Shown piece by piece: positions 1 through 46,252 of a DNA stretch of 64,000 nucleotides. The notes under the pieces are model-generated. The model did not search any database. It was not told where the DNA came from and saw nothing but the letters and a program-made list of their open reading frames with translations. The stretch comes from Fimicolochytrium jonesii (Eukaryota). The stretch lies in contig NW_026515685.1 in assembly GCF_025526975.1 (NCBI RefSeq), positions 310,001 through 374,000 of the forward strand. Direction: 5' to 3'. Positions within the stretch are counted from its first letter, which is position 1, and each line of letters starts with the position of its first letter. The translations under genes were made by a program, and so were the position numbers.

Positions 1-672
1 ATCTTCGTGGCATGTTCGGGACCATCGGCGAGTCAAGCGAGGGGAGGACCTCGCAGTCTGCGACGCTGCCAACCTCCCAGCGTCGCCAGCGTCGCCAAAT
101 CATACTGTCCCAGTCAGCAACAGCCAAACCTTCTCCCTTTCTCTGTGTTCTCTTCAACTTTTCGTTTTATGTATTGTACAGTACAAACAGTTGTGGCACA
201 GAAGTGACGAAAATGAAACTCAACGCGCACAAAATAGCTTTTTATACGTACATTGGACCATATTGAACACAGATGAGCCTGATGATGGACCTCCCAAGGC
301 TCCCATCGAACCTCCACCGTCACTGTGAGCGGCTAATTCCTTCGCATTCCACAGGGCTTCTTCTGTTTTTTTTTTCATGTTGAAGGGATATTGAAGGGAT
401 TTGCGGCGAGCTCTTCCAGCGAGGGCTTCCATGGAAGAAAGAGGGAGGAGGTATGGGGGCAAGGGGCGAGAATGAATTGGCAGACTCATCAACGCGGTGA
501 CGGCGGGATGAAGGCTGCAACGATCAATGCAAGCGTGAGCGGGAAATGAAGCACAAGGAGAAGATCGGTGTCAGCTTTACGAAATTGGAGACTCACCCGA
601 GCTTACGAACAACCCACCGCTTGGTCGCCAAGGGAGGAGGGTACGCTCGACGGTCGTCTGATCCGGTTCGTC

Positions 673-680
673 TATAAAAG
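673..680 (+). promoter_or_regulatory. TATA box (TATAAAAG), putative Pol II promoter of the hairpin-cluster transcript
   Basis: Consensus TATAWAAR about 70 nt upstream of hairpin 1. It is followed by a pyrimidine-rich stretch (~697-735), with no convincing protein ORF downstream. Confidence 0.5.
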
Positions 681-749: not shown

Positions 750-850
750 GCGATTACTGTTCTTTCGCATTCAGGTTCTGTCTTGCACATCAAAAGACAA
801 TACGCAGTGGTGTGCGCAACACATAACTTGGAGCGGAGAATAGTAATTGC
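750..850 (+). ncRNA. pre-miRNA-like hairpin 1 (putative guide 824-847 UAACUUGGAGCGGAGAAUAGUAAU)
   Basis: 750-763 GCGATTACTGTTCT pairs fully (2 G-U) with 837-850 AGAATAGTAATTGC. The stem continues with small bulges to 792/808 and closes a 15-nt loop. Confidence 0.65.
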
Positions 851-905
851 TGTCGTCGGCAACATCAGTTTCCGCTTTTTCTGAACCTGTCAACCGCCCA
901 GCTTC

Positions 906-1034
906 CCAGATACCACATCATCACTGTTCCTTCATTTCTGAGTTTGGTCCTGACGAGCTTTTGCATACGGCTTTCATTCGGCCTGTTGCCCATACGTCAG
1001 CACCTAACTTGGAATGGAGAATGGTAATGTCTGG
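906..1034 (+). ncRNA. pre-miRNA-like hairpin 2 (putative guide 1005-1028 UAACUUGGAAUGGAGAAUGGUAAU)
   Basis: 919-955 pairs with 995-1029 (G-U pairs, 2 single-nt bulges, 3 mismatches). Basal CCAGA/TCTGG at 906-910/1030-1034. Confidence 0.65.
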
Positions 1035-1094
1035 TCTTGATACATTGGCAAGGCCTTGACATCTTTACGGTCGTCTTTTCGATTTTTATTTTGT

Positions 1095-1222
1095 GTCGAG
1101 GTTCCGGTTACTGGTCTTTTCATTTCCGGGTTTTGCCTTGACGCTTCATGCGGCCCCATGTCGGGCCGGAGATGGCGATAATGCATAACTTGGAATGGAG
1201 AACAGTAATCAAGACTTCCGAC
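1095..1222 (+). ncRNA. pre-miRNA-like hairpin 3 (putative guide 1186-1209 UAACUUGGAAUGGAGAACAGUAAU)
   Basis: 1106-1136 pairs with 1183-1210. Basal stem 1095-1103/1213-1222 and an apical GGCCC/GGGCC helix. Confidence 0.65.
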
Positions 1223-1651
1223 GTTCTTTGGAATGTGACCATTTGCCTCGGTTACCCATCACTGGCAACCGATTAGCATCTCAAATTCAGTATGAATGAC
1301 ATCCAAACCATCCACGATCATTGAAGTCTGGCTTTCCTCAGTACCATCTCATTCGCATTCCAAAAACTTGTATTTCCAACAGCGTAATGGTATGCACCAC
1401 AACAGTCTCCCTCCCCCGCGAGAATGGTATATACACATAATCAAAAGGCACCACCGGGAATCCCGAGTCCTTTATCACAACAAAGAACCGCAAGCGCTGA
1501 TAATACCGTTCGGAGCAAAACTGGAGCCCCCGTCACTCCTCTCTCCTGAAGGCACCACCGGTAAACCGGGTCCTTATAGCAAACATAAACCGCAAGCACG
1601 ATATAACCCGACCGAACACAAACTACGGCCCCGTCAACGATTTTTTTTCCT

Positions 1652-5344
<3,693 letters not shown>

Positions 5345-10393: not shown

Positions 10394-13300
10394 ATGGCTC
10401 CCTCACAAACAACAACCACCTCCAAAAGGAGAACCGACACCTCGACTTTCCACACCCTCGACCGGCAACAAGCCGCCGTCTACCCGTCCAAAACCCGCCC
10501 GCAGTACCCGGAGCTCGCCAAGCTCTCCGCGCCGCATGTCGAGAGTTTCAACAGCCTGTTTGCGCATGGAACGGCGTCTAGTGGGCTGCTGGATAGGGCC
10601 GTGCAGGATATCGGGAAACGGGTGGTGTTTGATGGGAAGCCCGGGGAGAGTGGACGGAATAAGATTGAATGTGAGTTGGTTTTTAGATGCGGGAGTGCCT
10701 CTGGTGTGACGAATAGCGTACTGATCCAACGAGACCTTTTCAGTATGGCTATCGAGCGTAAGCGTAGGGAAACCAGTAATCGAAGCGGGCGGTGGTGGGG
10801 TATCAAACCAGCTGTTTCCTTCAGAATGCCGCGAACGAGGAATGTCCTACAAGAGCGTGATGCAAGTCCGTTTAAACTGGCGAGTGAACGGCGGCACGGT
10901 GCAAAGCGAAGTGCGATCTCTCGGGAAGCTGCCTGTCATGGTTCGGTCGCTCCGCTGCAACCTGGAAGGCAAATCGCCTCGCGACCTCATCAAACATAAC
11001 GAGGACCCCGACGAGTTCGGGGGCTACTTTGTCAGCAATGGTATCGAGCGTTTGATCCGGTTGCTAATTGTGCCCAGGCGCAACCACCCAACCGCCATCA
11101 TCCGAAACTCGTTCCAGAACCGTGGACCGACCTACTCGCCGTACGGTGTCTCCATGCGGTGCGTGCGACCCGACCAGACCTCCCAGACCGTCACGATGCA
11201 CTACTGCACCGACGGACCCGTCACCCTGCGGTTCTCCTACCGCAAAAACGAGTACATGGTCCCCGTCATGCTCGTCCTCCGCGCCCTCTGCGAAGCCAGC
11301 GATCGCGAGCTCTTCGAACGCCTCACGATGGGGCAGACCTCCAACACCTTCCTCACCGACCGCGTCGAGCTGCTCCTGCGGAGTTTCCGCCGATACGCGG
11401 TGCACACCAAGAAGCAGTGCACGGCGTACCTCGGCGCCAAATTCGCGGTCATGATGGACTCCCCCGACGATATGTACGAGGAGGAGGTCGGCGAGGAGTT
11501 CCTGCGCCGCGTCGTGCTTGTGCATCTCGACGACCCGAGGGAGAAGTTCGATATGTTGATCTTCATGATGCAGAAGCTGTACGCTCTTGTCGCGGGCGAC
11601 TGTGCGGGCGATAACCCGGATTCGCCGCAGCATCAAGAGATCCTTTTGCCCGGCCACCTGTACTTGTCGATCATGAAGGAGAAGATGGGCGACTGGTTGA
11701 CCGCGATCAAGATCCAGATCCAGCAGGATATCCGTTTGAAACCCACCCAGGTCGACTTTATGGACAAGAAGTACATTGTTAAAGTGCTCAGCAAAACGTT
11801 CGGGTCGGCGGATATCGGCCGCAAGATGGAGTACTTCCTCGCCACGGGCAACCTGGTCTCCAACACGGGTCTGGATCTGCAGCAGACGTCCGGTTACACC
11901 ATCGTTGCCGAGAAGTTGAATTTCTACCGATACATCTCCCATTTCCGGTCCGTCCACCGTGGTAGTTTCTTTGCGGAGCTGAAAACGACCACCGTGCGGA
12001 AGTTGTTACCCGAGAGCTGGGGGTTCCTGTGTCCGGTCCACACGCCCGATGGAAGTCCGTGTGGTCTGCTGAACCATTTGGCGCACCTGTGCCGGATCGT
12101 GGTGGATAAGATCGATGTCAGCAAGGTGCCTGCGCTGGTAGCGAGTTTGGGCGTCGGGCAGATGAGCGGGATGGGTCCGCGGACGCGGAACGAGGCGTCG
12201 AATGCGGTGCCGGACGAAACGGATGCGATGGAGATCGATGACGAGGAAGATGATGAGTTTGATGACGTGGAGGACGACGAAGACGAGCTTAACGCGCTGG
12301 ACCCGGAATCGGAGATGAAGCGTCGGAAGAACGTCACTGTTTCCGTGCAGCTGGATGGGAAAGTCATTGGATGGTGCAGCGCCTCGATGGCCGCCAAGGT
12401 CGCGCAACGGCTCCGGCATTGGAAGGTTACCCGCACGCGGCCTATTCCGTTGGATTTGGAAATTGGATACGTCCCGCCTACAAGAGGTGGACAGTATCCC
12501 GGTCTCTTCCTCTTCTCTACGCCGGCGCGCATGATGCGGCCCGTCAAGCACCTCGCGACGGGCGAGCGGGACATGGTGGGCCCGTTCGAGCAGGTGTACA
12601 TGGACATTGCGTGTCTGAAGGAAGACGTGGTCCCCGGCACGACGACACATATCGAAGAATCGCCCACCAACATCCTCAGCGTCGTTGCGAACCTGACGCC
12701 CTTCTCGGACCACAACCAGAGTCCGCGAAACATGTACCAGTGCCAGATGGGGAAACAGTCGATGGGAACCCCCGCGCAGAACTTGCCTAACCGGACGGAT
12801 AACAAGCTGTACCGTCTGCAGACGGGGCAGACGCCTGTTGTGAGACCTAAACTGCACGACGCGTATGGGTTGGATGGGTACCCGAACGGCATGAACGCCG
12901 TGGTGGCGGTTATTTCGTACACGGGCTACGACATGGAAGACGCGTCGATCCTCAACAAGTCGTCGCATGAGCGCGGGTACGGGCACGGCACGATCTACAA
13001 AGGCGAGTTTATCGATCTGAGCGACAAGCGCAAGAAAGGCGAGCCGATGACGCTGCATTTCGGGATCATGGCCGAAGGCACCGCCGCGTTGACGTTCAAA
13101 GACGCCGACAAGATCCTGAAATTCCTGGACGAGGACGGGTTACCGATCATCGGCAACCGCATCACACACGGCGACCCATACTACGCGTACGTCGACGACG
13201 TCACGGGTAAAGTCACCGTCGTGCCCTACAAGGGCATGGAAGACGCCTACATCGACCAGGTCCGGCTGATCGGCACCGACACCGGCGACCAGGAGCTGCA

Positions 13301-14194
13301 GAAGATCCACATCAAGCTCCGGATCCCGCGGCCGCCCGTCATCGGCGACAAGTTCTCGTCCCGGCACGGCCAGAAGGGCGTCATCTCGCAGAAATGGCCG
13401 ACGGTGGATATGCCGTTCAGCGAGACCGGGATCGTGCCGGACGTGATCATCAACCCGCACGCGTTCCCGTCGCGCATGACGATTGGGATGTTTGTGGAGA
13501 GTTTGGCGGGGAAGAGTGGCGCGTTGCATGGGAAGGCGCAGGATGCGACGCCGTGGACTTTTTTGGAGGGGGATGGCGAGCCTGCGGCGGATTATTTTGG
13601 GGAGGAGTTGAGGGAGGCTGGGTTCAATTATCATGGGAACGAGGCGATGTATAGTGGGATTACCGGGGGGGAGTTCAAGGCTGATATTTACATTGGGGTG
13701 AGTTTTTTTTCGTGGAGGGGTGGGTGCTTTGGTGGCTGGTTGTTGGGGAGATTCATTGACTGATTGAGCTGCCCTTTTTTTTTGGGATGTGTTAGGTGGT
13801 GTACTATCAACGTCTCCGGCACATGGTCTCTGACAAATACCAAGTGCGCACGATCGGCCCGGTGCACAACGTCACGCAACAACCCATCAAGGGCCGCAAA
13901 CGGGCGGGCGGGATCCGATTCGGAGAGATGGAGCGCGACTCGCTCCTCGCGCACGGCGTGTCGTTCCTCCTGCAAGACCGGCTGATGAACTGCTCTGATT
14001 ACAGCCAGTCGTGGTGCTGTTCGCAATGTGGGAGCCTGGTGGGTGTGGAGACGGCGCTAGGCAAGCATCGCGCGGTGTGCAGGACGTGTGGGGATGGGAA
14101 GGGCGTGGAGATTGTCGCGGTGCCGTTTGTGTTTAGGTACCTTGTGAGTGAGCTGGTGGCGATGGGGGTCAAGTTGAAGTTGACTGTGGAGTAG
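10394..14194 (+). CDS. RPA135: RNA polymerase I second-largest subunit (A135)
   Basis: [84 protein letters not shown] and a C-terminal Zn ribbon. Introns ~10671-10743 and ~13698-13795. Confidence 0.97.
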
Positions 14195-40613: not shown

Positions 40614-43600
40614 ATGAACATTTCGAACCCGGTGCCGAAGGAGGTCACTTCGGTGGCCTTCTCGTTCTTGGACAACAAGGATGTTCGGAAGCTTTCGGTC
40701 AAGCAGATAACGAATCCTATTCTCTTTGACAACCTCGAGCATCCGACTACAGGCGGTCTTTATGATCCCGCGCTAGGACCTCACGACAAAAATTCTAGGT
40801 AGGCCATCGCAATTTTGCGCCGTATGAAACTCTTCACTGATAACGAAAACACTCCGACTATAGGTGTACGACATGTTCCCTCGGGCACTTCTCTTGCCCA
40901 GGACACTTCGGCCACATCGACCTTGCAGCCCCCGTTTACAACCCTATCACCTTCCGCCTTATGTACAAACTCCTCCAATCCCTATGTTTCTACTGCCATC
41001 ATCTGCGTTCCTCGCGGGTTGCGATCGCACATTACTCAGCGAAGCTTAAGCTCATATATGCTGGTCTGATCACGGAGGCGGCAGAACTCGACACGCTTGT
41101 TTCGACGAAAGCCAGCGCGCCATTGAAAAAGGCGAAGAAGGCAAAGACGACCAAATCCACACAACGGAACGAGTTCATCGAGGACGAGGCGGAGGAGGTG
41201 GATGAGGACGAGGAGGAGGAAGGAAGGGAATCTGAAAACGAGGACTCCATGGACATTGATGCTGAACTTGGTCTTGGGCCACGGACAGCTGAACACATGA
41301 TTGCCGAGATCGAAGACTACGTGCAGGAAGTTTTTGCGAAGGAACGTCCCGGCGCAGTTCGAAAGACAACTCTGGTGATCGAGGCACTTCGAAAGCTGGA
41401 AAGGCAGTTCTTGGGCTCCATTCCAGCGCAAAGTTGTGCTGGCTGTAGGGGACAAAGTCCCAAGTTTCGTAAGGAAGGCCAGCTCAAGATCTTCCAAAAG
41501 CCGTTGAATCCGAAACAGAGGCACGCTATGGACGCGAAAGGGCTGAAGTTTGAATCGCTCTTCTCCACCGCGCCTGAAGAGGCCGAGACAGATCCATCTC
41601 TCGGTCACGGCAACTCTGCAACGAACGGGATAAGCGCGACTGAGAAGGCACGAGCAGTTCTGGCAATGGAGGTACAGATTACGGAAGCAGACCTGGACGC
41701 TGTCGCCGTCGAGCAAGCTCCCGTCCTCAGCAAGGATAAGTTCTTGACACCATTAGAAGTACAACAACATCTGAAGATGCTGTGGGAGCGGGAACAAAGC
41801 ATACTCGACCTTCTTTATGGATCCACGTCCGTAGAGACTGGCAAGAGAACATCCTCGTACCGGATGTTCTTCTCCGACGTTGTTCCCGTTGCCCCAACCC
41901 GCTTCCGACCGATCTCGAAAATGAACGATATGGTCTACGAGCACCCCCAAAACACGCATCTGACAGAGATCCTGAAGGCGAATCTCGCCATCCAGGATAT
42001 TCGAGCTCAGGAGCAAGTTGCTCTTGCTGCTATTCCCGACAAATCATCAAACCTATATTACGAGAGAAGATCGGAGTTCCTGAAAAGGATCGTTGATTCC
42101 TGGATCAGGTTGCAGATGAGCGTCAACAACAACATCGACAGCTCAAAGGCACCACCAGGCCCCGGAGGCAAAGCACCGCCCCTTGGTATCAAACAGCTGC
42201 TTGAGAAGAAGGAAGGTCTCTTCCGAAAGCACATGATGGGAAAGCGTGTCAACTTTGCGGCCAGGTCTGTCATCAGTCCGGATCCGTACATCGAGACGAA
42301 CGAGATCGGGATACCACCCGTGTTTGCTACCAAACTTACATATCCTGAACCGGTGACGCATCACAACGTCAAGGAGTTACGGAGAGCAGTCATCAACGGG
42401 CCTTTGAAGTGGCCTGGCGCGTCACATGTCGTCACGGAGGATGGAACGGAAGTCAATCTGGCTACCTTCGACGAGGCGGGACGGACAGGGATCGCAAACC
42501 AGTTGTTGACACCGAATATCGGTGTGTCTGGCAATAACCAACACACGCATGTCAACAAGAAAGTTCTCCGACACTTGCGGAACGGTGATTTCCTCCTCCT
42601 CAACCGTCAACCAACTCTGCACAAACCATCCATCATGGCACACACCGCCCGTGTCCTGCCCGGTGAGAAAACCATTCGAATGCACTACGCCAACTGGTAG
42701 GAATACAATATTAATAGCTAAAGTACCCACAACAATGTGTCCAATTCTAACATAATCCATAATCAACAGTAACACGTACAACGCTGACTTCGACGGAGAC
42801 GAAATGAACGCGCACTTCCCGCAAAACGAAGTGGCCAGAGCGGAGGCGATGCTGATCGCTCGCACGGATAAGCAGTACCTTGTCCCCACAGATGGAGGAG
42901 TTTTGCGTGGTCTCATTCAAGATCACGTTGACGCTGGTGTGCATATGTGTTGTCGGGACACCTTGCTGGGAAGGGAGGAGTACATGCAGTTGGTGTACGG
43001 ATGCCTGCGGCCGGAGGGTATGCGCGGTTTCGGGACCGTTGGAAATGGCAACATTGAGGAAGAGCTGGTTATCGGAGAGCATGGCAAGGTCATCACTATC
43101 GAACCTGCGCACATGAAGCCCAGGAGGTTCTGGACGGGGAAGCAAGTTATCACCACCGTCCTTTTGAACTTGACTGCGGGAGCAGAACCCCTTAACATGA
43201 TCTCCAAAGCGAAGATCCCCGCAAAAGCCTGGGGACCGACTGGAAAGGAAGAGCAAGGAGTGCTCTTCATGGACGGTCACCTTTTGACTGGTGTGCTGGA
43301 CAAGTCTCAGTTCGGTGCCAGTGACAACGGTCTTGTGCACGCCGTCTACGAGACTTACGGACCCGCTTACGCCGGAAAGCTTCTCTCCATCCTCGGACGG
43401 CTGTTTACCGGGTACATGCAGATGTTCGGGTTCACGTGTAGAATGGACGATTTGCGTTTGACTGGCAAGGGTGACATCAAGCGACGAGAACTCATCAACA
43501 AGAGCAAAACGATGGGTCGGGAAGCCATCGTTGAGTACGTGGGTGCAGAGAAAGCCCGCACGGACCTTTCCCTCTCGCTAAGCATGGAGAGTGTCCTCCG

Positions 43601-46252
43601 CGTTGACGAGAAGATGGCCGGCCTCGACTCCGCGATGAAGAGCAAAACGAACCGAGTCACGTCCGAGATCATCTCGTCCACTGTTCCCGATCAGCTGCTC
43701 AAGCCGTTCCCGCACAACAACATGCAGATGATGACGGTCTCGGGAGCTAAGGGGTCGAACGTCAACGTGTCGCAGATCTCGTGTTTGCTGGGACAGCAGG
43801 AGTTGGAGGGTCGGCGTGTGCCTACGATGATCTCGGGGAAGACGCTGCCGAGTTTCCCGGCGTTTGATACGGCCGCACGAGCGGGAGGATATATTACCGG
43901 ACGGTTCTTGACTGGAATCAAACCTCAGGAGTACTTCTTCCGTAAGTCGTAGGCGATTGGTGTTTGTGGCAAGCAATCCTTCGTTTGTCTAACCATTTTC
44001 ACTTCCTCGAAATAGATTGTATGGCTGGGCGAGAAGGTCTCATTGACACAGCCGTCAAAACATCTCGATCAGGTTACTTGCAGAGGTGTTTGATCAAGCC
44101 CCTGGAAGGCCTCCGGGTCCACTACGATCACACTGTCCGTGATTCCGACGGAAGTATCGTTCAGTTCCACTACGGCGAGGACTCGCTAGACGTGACCAAG
44201 CAGAAGACGCTCACCAAATTCGATTTCTGCGCCATGAACTACCTCGCGCTGGTTGAGCGCTACAACCCTACTCGTCTTGCTAATGCCTCTATTGACTCGG
44301 AGAAGGTGGAGAAATACCGAAAGAAGCAGAAGAAGAGAGGGATCACAAACACCACGCTTCTGGAAAAGTTCTCCCCGTCTCGTTTCCTTGGAGCGGTCAG
44401 TGAGGGTTTTGCAAACGATCTGGACGCATACATCGAGAAGAACCCCAGCAACCTCCTCACGAACAAGAAGGCGAGAAAGGAAGGCAAGAAGCACAAGGCA
44501 TGGTCCGGCGACGCTGTCAAGGACTCCCACTTCAAGCTCCTTATGAACCTCAAATACATGAACTCCCTGGTGGAGCCCGGTGAAGCCGTCGGTCTGCTTG
44601 CGGCGCAGAGTATCGGCGAGCCTTCGACGCAGATGACGTTGAACACTTTCCACTTTGCTGGATTCGGTGCCAAGAACGTCACGCTTGGTATTCCGCGTCT
44701 TCGTGAGATTATCATGACGGCGTCCGATAACATCAAGACGCCGATGATGAGGTTACCGATGCTGCCGAGCGTCACACCGGCGCAGAGCGAGGCGTTCGCA
44801 AAGAGTATCTCGAAATTGGTGCTGTCGCAGGTTATGGAAGGCGTTAGTGTGAAGGAGCTGCTCAGCACTAAGGGGACTGACTTGTTGAGGAAGAAGATCT
44901 TCACCGTAAGACTGAGGTTCTGGAAGCCGGAGGATTACAAGGCTGATCACGGGATCACGCAGGAGGATCTTGGGCGGGTTATTGAGAAGGGTTTCGTGCG
45001 GGCACTGGATCGGGCTATTACCAAGGAACTGAAGGCTAAGAAGAGGAAGGAGGATGATGTTGATGATAACATTGGGGTTGGGACCACTTCTCCTGACGCT
45101 GTGCGACCTTCTCGATCGGGCGACGGCGAGGAAGGAAGTGACCGCCAGGCGGTTATGGACGACGAAGACGACGCCGGGTCGGACATTGAAGGAGACGATG
45201 GCGATGCGGTCAACACCAAGCAAACAAAGGCGCGGATGCAACTATCCAGCTACGACGCTCCCGACGACGATGATGAGGAAGTGATACGCCGGGTGGATCG
45301 CCAAATGAGCGACGATGAAAACGAGGACGACTCTGCAGGGAACGCGCAGCAGGCTGACGAGGACACTTCTGGCGCCACCGACGCCAGCGGTCTGACACGG
45401 GAAGAGCGGATTGTAACCAGCAGCCGCTTCGTGGTCGGATACAAGTTCGACCACGCGCGCGGGCGGTACTGCGACATCAAGCTTTCGTTCCCGGCCACGG
45501 TCAAGAAGATGCTCATGGTCTCCCTTGTCGAGAAAGTGTGCCGCAGCGTCGTGATCCACGAAGTCGACCGCATCTCCCGCTCGTACCCGTTACCCAACGA
45601 GGCCGAGAACGACAAGTCGGTCAACATCGGCACCGACGGCGTCAACCTCAAGGGCATGTGGGAGTACATGAACATGATCGACGTCTCCAAGATCTACACC
45701 AACGACGTTGCCGCGGTGTTGCGGACGTACGGTGTCGAGGCGGCCCGCGCTGCGATCATGCAGGAGATCGCGGGCGTGTTCGCGGTGTATGGGATCAACG
45801 TCGACAAGCGCCATTTGTCGTTGATTGCGGATTTCATGACGTTTGAGGGCGGGTATAAGCCTTTCAATCGGATGGGAATGGGCAGCAACCCGAGTCCGTT
45901 TGCGCAGATGAGTTTCGAGACGACGACGCAGTTCTTGACTACCGCGACGTTGTAAGTACTCACCCATCACCTCACACATGTCATTGGTCTTTGGAGATTG
46001 CAACGTAAACTAACGAGACATGATTCATCTTACGTTCACAGATCCGGAGACTTCGACAACCTCGAAAACCCCTCCGCCCGGCTCGTCCTCGGCAAAGTCG
46101 TCAAGGGCGGGACAGGCTCCTTCGAGGTCCGCCAACCCCTTAACGTCCGCGTCAGCGGCGTACAGGCGGCGGGTACGATCGCCGCCGAGGCACAGGATTT
46201 CGTCGCTAACCGCGCTACGAATGTTGTGAGGGATGTTGTTGTGGAGGCGTAG
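40614..46252 (+). CDS. RPA190: RNA polymerase I largest subunit (A190), multi-exon
   Basis: [55 protein letters not shown], catalytic [48 protein letters not shown] and an acidic expander region. Confidence 0.97.

What the first reader, a model, noticed from the sequence alone, without database searches (positions are those of the whole stretch)
750..1222. Polycistronic microRNA-like cluster: three hairpins sharing a 24-nt U-initial 3'-arm sequence at exact 181-bp spacing
Seen directly: TAACTTGGAGCGGAGAATAGTAAT (824-847), TAACTTGGAATGGAGAATGGTAAT (1005-1028) and TAACTTGGAATGGAGAACAGTAAT (1186-1209) are 21-22/24 identical, with invariant positions 1-9, and start 181 and 181 nt apart. Each copy is the 3' arm of a 30-45-bp imperfect stem. 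The partner 5' arms (GATTACTGTTCTTTCGCATTCAGGTT, CATCACTGTTCCTTCATTTCTGAGTT, GGTTACTGGTCTTTTCATTTCCGGGTT) are more divergent but keep pairing, largely through G-U wobbles. These work only on the + strand, which implies selection on RNA structure and gives the direction. Loops and spacers are unrelated. In all three, the first U of the conserved segment faces a mismatch. Established knowledge: a conserved guide, drifting star arm, free loop, 5' U and weakly paired guide 5' end are the signature of Dicer/Argonaute miRNA families. Fungal milRNAs are known mainly from Dikarya and Mucorales. Inference: this is a pri-miRNA encoding three paralogous small RNAs with one seed (AACUUGG) in a zoosporic fungus. 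I am not aware of such a cluster being described in this group.
Basis: partly seen in the sequence, partly recalled or inferred. Interest (0 to 1): 0.92.

Follow-up and report, generated by a model that had tools for sequence, protein, structure and literature searches.

The report
MicroRNA-like hairpin trio in a chytrid
Three neighbouring fold-back sequences in a soil chytrid fungus each carry nearly the same 24-letter stretch and are likely a gene cluster for one microRNA-like small RNA, which would extend such RNAs to a fungal phylum where our literature searches found none.

Summary
Three hairpins (750-850, 912-1035, 1099-1217) carry a 24-nt U-initial 3' arm, 21-22/24 identical. Each folds better than 200 of 200 shuffles on the + strand. 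Conservation falls from 3' arm (88-92%) to partner arm (70-74%), upper stem (46-57%) and spacers (background). The arm duplexes hold 14 G-U pairs against 1 A-C, all bulges lie on the partner arm, and nucleotide 1 is unpaired in all three. A TATA box lies 77 nt upstream; no coding, Rfam or tRNA signal was found. The host is Fimicolochytrium (Spizellomycetales). Best reading (0.62): a precursor for three same-seed, roughly 24-nt microRNA-like RNAs, cut by a Dicer from the loop side, in geometry like plant MIR156. The closest known case is a seven-locus cluster in Rhizophagus irregularis. Not shown: expression, precise processing, Dicer or Argonaute in this species, orthologues, any target. No reads, genome or relatives' DNA were available.

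The parts
673..680 (+). TATA box (TATAAAAG), candidate promoter; start of transcription inferred near 700-710
   Evidence: Only TATAAAAG in the window; TATAWAWR has 8 matches in the window against 2.8 expected; first ATG downstream is at 1014
750..850 (+). Hairpin 1 (H1)
   Evidence: -44.8 kcal/mol for 750-852, z -6.4, 0 of 200 shuffles; best MFE index of 8,520 110-nt windows on both strands
753..778 (+). H1 partner (star) arm, 26 nt, 2 bulged bases
824..847 (+). H1 conserved 24-nt arm, predicted mature small RNA 1
876..880 (+). T5 run after H1 (possible RNA polymerase III stop)
   Evidence: seen in sequence; function not tested
912..1035 (+). Hairpin 2 (H2)
   Evidence: -42.9 kcal/mol, z -4.2, 0 of 200 shuffles; not among the 30 best windows by MFE index
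920..945 (+). H2 partner arm, 26 nt, 2 bulged bases, one A-C mismatch
1005..1028 (+). H2 conserved 24-nt arm, predicted mature small RNA 2
1083..1087 (+). T5 run after H2 (possible RNA polymerase III stop)
   Evidence: seen in sequence; function not tested
1099..1217 (+). Hairpin 3 (H3)
   Evidence: -51.1 kcal/mol for 1100-1216, z -5.2, 0 of 200 shuffles
1107..1133 (+). H3 partner arm, 27 nt, 3 unpaired extra bases
1186..1209 (+). H3 conserved 24-nt arm, predicted mature small RNA 3
1428..1441 (.). TA-rich element, candidate 3'-end signal shared with the convergent kinase gene (inferred)
   Evidence: seen in sequence; not tested
1652..5231 (-). Neighbour, not part of the element: convergent spliced protein-kinase gene; stop codon inferred at 1654-1652
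   Evidence: Pkinase E 2.8e-22 in 4719-5231; last intron and exon read

Best explanation
The locus is likely a microRNA-like gene cluster: three paralogous hairpins, each predicted to release one U-initial small RNA of about 24 nt with the same first nine bases. Shown: the three hairpins, their shared origin, the conservation gradient, RNA-type pairing on the + strand, and the lack of any coding or known-RNA signal. Inferred mechanism: (1) RNA polymerase II starts about 30 nt below the TATA box at 673 and reads all three hairpins as one non-coding RNA of about 700 nt. (2) A Dicer cuts each hairpin first on the loop side. The structured top of 45-59 nt is long, while the stem below the duplex is only a few pairs. 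This cut sets the 5' U of the 3' arm. (3) A second cut, or 3' trimming, frees a 24-nt guide paired with a 26-27-nt bulged partner. (4) The unpaired 5' U selects the 3' arm for Argonaute. (5) The guide silences RNAs encoded elsewhere through its invariant positions 1-9 and 12-17. Three copies would raise the dose and slightly widen the target range.
For: Folding: z -6.4, -4.2, -5.2 on +, 0 of 200 shuffles each. Strand: with an aligner blind to strand, the three duplexes hold 54 Watson-Crick pairs, 14 G-U, 1 A-C and 3 mismatches, all at position 1. Counting each position once gives 8 G-U against 1 A-C, p 0.02. Structure kept: 88 of 90 cells paired over 30 pairs, 6 pairs with changes on both sides, 0 of 500 shuffles as high (the structure came from these same sequences). 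Asymmetry: 3' arm 88-92%, partner 70-74%, upper stem 46-57%, spacers at background. All 7 gaps fall on the partner side. Variable columns are 4 of 24 against 12 of 28 (hand count), p 0.04. Position 1 is unpaired in 3 of 3. Context: TATA box at 673; no Rfam family at gathering score in the window; 0 tRNAs; 0 of 10 short ORFs in the protein collection; codon score at or below 0 in all six frames from 721 to 1710. Host is Fimicolochytrium (100% identity). Relatives Powellomyces hirtus and two Spizellomyces species each list 3 Dicers (PMC12663654 supplement rows). Small RNAs of 24-26 nt, about half U-initial, and miRNA-like hairpins of 102-226 nt in a same-strand cluster exist in Rhizophagus (PMC6399891).
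Against: No expression or processing data at all. Dicer and Argonaute were not tested in this species; it is absent from the Dicer table, and its relative Geranomyces variabilis is listed as 'No Dcr detected'. No orthologue was found: 3 metagenome and 2 viral matches of the arm lack a partner arm, and 0 of 5 match the covariance model. No target in the window: 9 non-self seed sites against 8.0 expected. The best non-self duplexes (-22 to -25 kcal/mol against -37 to -39 for a perfect match) beat 6 of 6 shuffled guides each, but by only 0.2-1.4 kcal/mol. The minus strand also folds above chance, and over 690-1450 the strands are nearly equal (-227.8 and -225.8). Well-supported fungal loci have under 20 nt between the duplex arms (PMC9757828 section 11), against 45-59 nt here. 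T5 runs after H1 and H2 fit separate polymerase III units as well as one transcript. Three paralogues give little statistical power, and the codon test is weak: kinase exon windows scored only 0.25 or below.
Confidence: 0.62

Rival explanations
1. Uncut structural element. The three hairpins stay intact in a long non-coding RNA or an unusually long UTR, and the conserved purine-rich arm is read by an RNA-binding protein or switches pairing partner.
For: Explains RNA-type pairing and compensatory change equally well. The gene upstream of 670 could not be identified or oriented, so a 3' UTR is not excluded. An earlier AI note on another fungus (e1-7567398, unchecked) placed a similar array in a 3' UTR. 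A guide-like 12-mer at 1227-1238 can pair with 1353-1364.
Against: The conserved block is fully buried in a helix and ends sharply at 24 nt with an unpaired first U. Protein-binding elements usually conserve loops or bulges (established knowledge), and here the bulges move between copies. A TATA box lies just upstream. No + strand branch-point and acceptor pattern was found in 1-1900.
Confidence: 0.17
2. Hairpin siRNA source. A Dicer cuts the hairpins imprecisely, giving a spread of small RNAs that act on chromatin, transposons or viruses rather than one defined guide.
For: Long stems of about 35-40 pairs with long tops. Fungal loci show lower cutting precision than plant or animal miRNAs (PMC9757828 section 11).
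Against: Only one 24-nt block per hairpin is conserved and the rest drifts. Imprecise products would not be expected to give a sharp boundary at U1.
Confidence: 0.1
3. Neutral relic. A small foldback element (MITE-like) was duplicated in tandem and is decaying; the arms look conserved only because they were inverted repeats.
For: The units share ancestry beyond the arms (upper stems z 2.1-2.7). The minus strand folds above chance, and DNA energies show no strand preference. Copy number elsewhere in the genome is unknown because no genome was held.
Against: G-U exceeds A-C 14 to 1. One arm is conserved more than the other. The pair just below the block differs in all three copies (G-U, C-G, G-C), whereas terminal repeats are conserved at their ends (established knowledge). 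No target-site duplication at 5 of 5 boundary choices inspected by eye. No further copy in 64 kb.
Confidence: 0.08
4. DNA-level motif cluster. The repeated core (GGAATG, whose complement CATTCC is recalled as a TEA-domain factor site) is an enhancer and the hairpins are incidental.
For: CATTCC occurs 5 times in 340-1365 counting both strands, of 43 in the window.
Against: H1 lacks the motif. The motif does not explain 24-nt conservation, pairing or G-U excess.
Confidence: 0.03

Closest known systems
Rhizophagus irregularis miRNA-like cluster, scaffold 28 (PMC6399891; passages and section 8 read)
   Same: Early-diverging fungus; several same-strand hairpin loci of 102-226 nt; 6 of 7 matures start with U, lengths 19-24 nt, with related 5' ends.
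   Different: That cluster has 7 loci over 8.3 kb with differing matures and read support. Here there are 3 hairpins in 470 nt with near-identical arms, a different phylum, no visible sequence likeness to the 10 listed matures (by eye), and no reads.
Plant short loop-to-base miRNA precursors, MIR156 and MIR160 (PMC3787264; passages read)
   Same: Structured top above the duplex rather than a 15-pair lower stem; asymmetric bulges that make the star strand about 2 nt longer than the guide.
   Different: The top here is 45-59 nt against about 42; the guide would be 24 nt against about 20; no near-perfect target was seen in the window; no sequence homology is claimed.
Neurospora crassa milR-1 to milR-4 (PMC3547838; passages read)
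   Same: Intergenic stem-loops, one-arm products with 5' U, TATA-like element, downstream T runs.
   Different: Those are single short polymerase III transcripts (about 170 nt for milR-1). Here H3 has no T5 run until 1641, and the copies are paralogous and tandem.
Animal polycistronic same-seed miRNA clusters (recalled; Microprocessor distribution from PMC6206976 passages)
   Same: Several hairpins with one seed; invariant positions 2-8 and 13-16 with variable positions 10-11 (three change events only, not significant).
   Different: Drosha and Pasha were not found in fungi; the lower stem is short and the top far longer than an animal loop.

Membership tests
microRNA / fungal milRNA gene | Single-stranded precursor folding into an imperfect hairpin | tested here: met
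   z -6.4, -4.2, -5.2, 0 of 200 shuffles each; predicted folding only
microRNA / fungal milRNA gene | 20-26-nt guide in one arm, well paired to the other arm | tested here: met
   21-23 of 24 positions paired per hairpin, with 2-3 extra bases on the partner arm; H3 exceeds strict plant bulge limits (recalled)
microRNA / fungal milRNA gene | Guide more conserved than star, loop and flanks, with structure kept | tested here: met
   Among three paralogues only
microRNA / fungal milRNA gene | 5' U on a weakly paired guide end | tested here: met
   U1 unpaired at probability 1.00 in 3 of 3; the true 5' end is inferred from the conservation boundary
microRNA / fungal milRNA gene | Not from coding sequence, structural RNA or transposon | tested here: inconclusive
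   No Rfam or tRNA hit, 0 of 10 ORFs on record, weak codon test negative; no repeat library or genome to exclude a transposon
microRNA / fungal milRNA gene | Expressed, stranded small RNA with a precise 5' end and a star read offset by 2 nt | not testable with these tools
   No reads could be laid on the locus
microRNA / fungal milRNA gene | Dicer and Argonaute present and required | tested here: inconclusive
   Species not tested. Three relatives list 3 Dicers each and one lists none; Chytridiomycota average 3.3 Argonautes and 3 Dicers (PMC4290597 table passage)
microRNA / fungal milRNA gene | Conservation in related species | not testable with these tools
   No chytrid genomes can be searched; metagenome and viral matches lack the hairpin
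microRNA / fungal milRNA gene | Targets in trans | tested here: inconclusive
   64 kb only: seed sites at chance level, no near-perfect site
Known Rfam families (miRNA, snoRNA, snRNA) | Score at or above the family's gathering threshold | tested here: not met
   0 in the window; best of 5 weak matches in 500-1800 has E 0.58, and two miRNA models score E 4.5 and 9.2
C/D snoRNA or polymerase III type 2 gene | Box C, or internal A and B boxes | tested here: not met
   No box C, A-box or B-box pattern in 690-1450; three isolated CTGA
MITE / foldback transposon | Conserved terminal inverted repeats with target-site duplication | tested here: not met
   The pair below the block differs in all three copies; no duplication at 5 of 5 boundaries inspected
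MITE / foldback transposon | High dispersed copy number | not testable with these tools
   No genome; no further copy in the window

The most novel reading that the evidence does not exclude
Chytrids make precisely cut microRNAs. One compact polymerase II polycistron yields a same-seed family of 24-nt guides, excised without Drosha by a PAZ-bearing Dicer working loop-first as in plants. This would be the first microRNA family in Chytridiomycota, combining plant-like excision with animal-like seed conservation.
Probability: 0.35. Interest if true: 0.85.

Novelty: new member of a known kind. Interest (0 to 1): 0.62.

Why it matters
Whether microRNA-type regulation arose once or many times in eukaryotes depends on lineages near the base of fungi and animals. 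A 41-species re-analysis covers Ascomycetes, Basidiomycetes, Glomeromycota and Microsporidia, with no chytrid mentioned. Spizellomycetales keep three Dicers, some with the full domain set, with no role given in the table rows seen. This locus gives exact predicted ends (824, 1005, 1186) and a predicted cutting order. One small-RNA library could confirm or reject it, and the sequence is a ready probe for orthologues.

Tried and rejected
No whole genome was held. The sequencing-run search listed no run and no RNA holder; this is no evidence either way. The metagenome scan gave 3 matches and the viral scan 2. None has a partner arm and 0 of 5 match the model; one is the antisense of a tRNA-Gly 3' end. 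All were read as chance. No match in phage records. Earlier-finding look-ups: 4 of 5 were empty; one gave a note on another genome. The best predicted target sites for guide 1 fall in the neighbouring kinase gene (near 3390 and 4750). From the sequence they lie in pyrimidine-rich intron ends, so they were rejected as compositional. The region near 54900-55200 looked star-like but follows a TATA-like site, and the covariance model found nothing there. No fourth hairpin was found: next model hit E 0.32. To obtain a chytrid Argonaute as a query, two motif scans were run. They returned a virus-borne Argonaute and Argonaute-like fragments judged animal-like or ascomycete-like by eye, none usable for this species, so the path was dropped. 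Two searches for the upstream gene found nothing (weak evidence). The original Neurospora milRNA paper was not held. The short core of the guide was searched in 9 supplementary files of PMC9757828 (one cut); the places shown were unrelated loci and 5 of 7 places in one file were not viewed. Claim of absence from print: paper searches listed no chytrid microRNA paper. Only open-access text is searched, and bioRxiv supplements were not available.

Full report
Observation. The three 24-mers lie at 824-847, 1005-1028 and 1186-1209. They differ at positions 10, 11, 18 and 19 only, giving 21, 21 and 22 of 24 identities. No other match exists in the window at up to 3 mismatches, and 0 of 100 shuffles give one. 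Each is the 3' arm of a long hairpin. + strand energies are -44.8, -42.9 and -51.1 kcal/mol, z -6.4, -4.2 and -5.2, with 0 of 200 shuffles as good. The 700-1300 stretch gives z -5.2 on + and -3.1 on - (20 shuffles each). Hairpin strength alone is not unique. H1 ranks first of 8,520 windows by MFE index and H3 tenth, but H2 is outside the top 30, and by longest stem H1 is listed fourteenth. The repetition of one arm is what sets the locus apart.

Host and setting. A window protein matches a Fimicolochytrium record at 100%, followed by Thoreauomyces, Powellomyces and Spizellomyces at 84-86%, so the host is a Spizellomycetales chytrid. The window holds ordinary housekeeping genes. A spliced protein-kinase gene on the minus strand ends, by my reading of its last intron, at 1652. 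The only TATAAAAG of the window is at 673, 77 nt above H1, and the first ATG after it is at 1014. Of 15 ORFs of 40 aa or more in 1-1700, 10 were looked up and none is on record. Four short frames have no Pfam match. A codon model scores all six frames at or below zero from 721 to 1710, but it is weak. There is no Rfam hit at gathering score, five weak ones at E 0.58-9.2 and no tRNA. What lies upstream of 670 was not resolved.

Selection on RNA structure. With an aligner that treats G-U and A-C alike, the three arm duplexes hold 54 Watson-Crick pairs, 14 G-U, 1 A-C, 3 mismatches and 7 gaps. All three mismatches are at position 1 and all gaps are extra bases on the partner arm. Shared wobbles are inherited, so the fair count is 8 positions against 1, p 0.02. 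On the consensus structure 88 of 90 cells pair, 6 of 30 pairs change on both sides and 9 on one side; 0 of 500 shuffles reach this. The structure was derived from the same three sequences, so this control leans in its favour. Against a strict one-strand reading, the minus strand also folds above chance (z -2.5 to -3.8).

Selection on one arm. Identity falls from 88-92% in the 3' arm to 70-74% in the partner, 46-57% in the upper stem and background in the spacers. The hairpins therefore arose by duplication and diverged everywhere except in a 24-nt block. Pairing alone would constrain both arms alike; the hand-counted contrast is 4 of 24 against 12 of 28 variable columns, p 0.04. The block starts at a U that is unpaired with probability 1.00 in all three. 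The equal 181-nt spacing is the sum of unequal parts and is best treated as coincidence.

Mechanism. The stem below the duplex is a few pairs long, while the top is a structured 45, 59 and 52 nt. Plant precursors cut from the base need about 15 lower pairs. Those cut from the loop have a structured top of about 42 nt, and MIR156 releases a star about 2 nt longer than its guide (PMC3787264 passages). Fungi lack Drosha and Pasha (PMC6206976 passages). I infer a Dicer cut on the loop side that sets the 5' U, a second cut or trimming at the base, and loading of the 3' arm into Argonaute. One polymerase II transcript is inferred from the TATA box and the C-rich leader. T5 runs at 876 and 1083 keep a Neurospora-like polymerase III route open (PMC3547838 passages). 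All of these steps are inferred; none was observed.

Machinery. Fimicolochytrium is absent from the fungal Dicer table. Powellomyces hirtus and two Spizellomyces species list three Dicers each, and Geranomyces variabilis lists none (PMC12663654 passages and supplement rows). Chytrids average 3.3 Argonautes (PMC4290597 table passage). The species itself could not be tested.

Targets and relatives. Seed-complementary 7-mers outside the locus number 9 against 8.0 expected. The best duplexes are far from perfect and only marginally above shuffled guides. The five outside matches of the arm have no hairpin. A covariance model finds only the three hairpins and their antisense images in the window.

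Comparison and novelty. The closest known case is the Rhizophagus cluster of seven same-strand miRNA-like loci (PMC6399891 section 8); Gigaspora has one such locus and Mucor circinelloides none (PMC7082362 passages). A re-analysis of 41 species names no chytrid in its text or in the 9 supplementary files searched (PMC9757828 passages, sections 7 and 11). A 2026 review has no occurrence of 'chytrid' (PMC13136243). PMC11258239 was read in passages and gave nothing on RNAi in this species. Seven searches aimed at chytrid small RNAs listed no such report (listings and abstract starts only). The top here is longer than in well-supported fungal loci (under 20 nt), which is either a real difference or a warning.

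Verdict. A real, selected RNA-structure triplet that works most probably like a microRNA cluster (0.62). Membership is unproven because expression and processing are untested. It would be a new member of a known kind in a phylum with no reported case. Interest 0.62; 0.85 if precise loop-first processing of a polycistron is shown.

Noticed in passing
window 1443-1540 and 1547-1640: Two-copy tandem repeat of about 100 nt at 104-nt spacing, 60 of 106 columns identical in blocks, in the inferred 3' UTR of the kinase gene. No folding signal on either strand (z -0.7 to 1.2). Unexplained.
   Followed up: partly
window 1227-1238 and 1341-1364: A guide-like 12-mer just after H3 can pair with a downstream stretch that is also partly complementary to guide 2. 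The enclosed domain folds at z -2.1 (+) and -2.7 (-). It did not reach the 14 best duplex sites. Possibly a decayed copy or chance.
   Followed up: partly
window 337-349: 13-mer matching the H1 partner arm at 11 of 13 positions, upstream of the TATA box.
   Followed up: no
L006 1446-4121: A viral contig carries an intact 891-aa Argonaute (ArgoN, L1, PAZ, L2, Piwi) next to Bro-N and per os infectivity factor genes, suggesting an insect DNA virus with a captured host Argonaute.
   Followed up: partly
L009, L011, L012, L016: Eukaryote-type Argonaute fragments inside contigs of bacterial metagenome-assembled genomes, probably contamination.
   Followed up: no
L004 501-520: The H1 arm is complementary to the 3' end of a phage tRNA-Gly over about 14 nt. 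It does not hold for H2 or H3; read as chance.
   Followed up: partly
window 10725-13763 and 40844-45955: Genes for two large RNA polymerase subunits lie 27 kb apart in the window; the first has the polymerase I-specific Rpa2 domain, and the second is probably its partner RPA1 (inferred).
   Followed up: no
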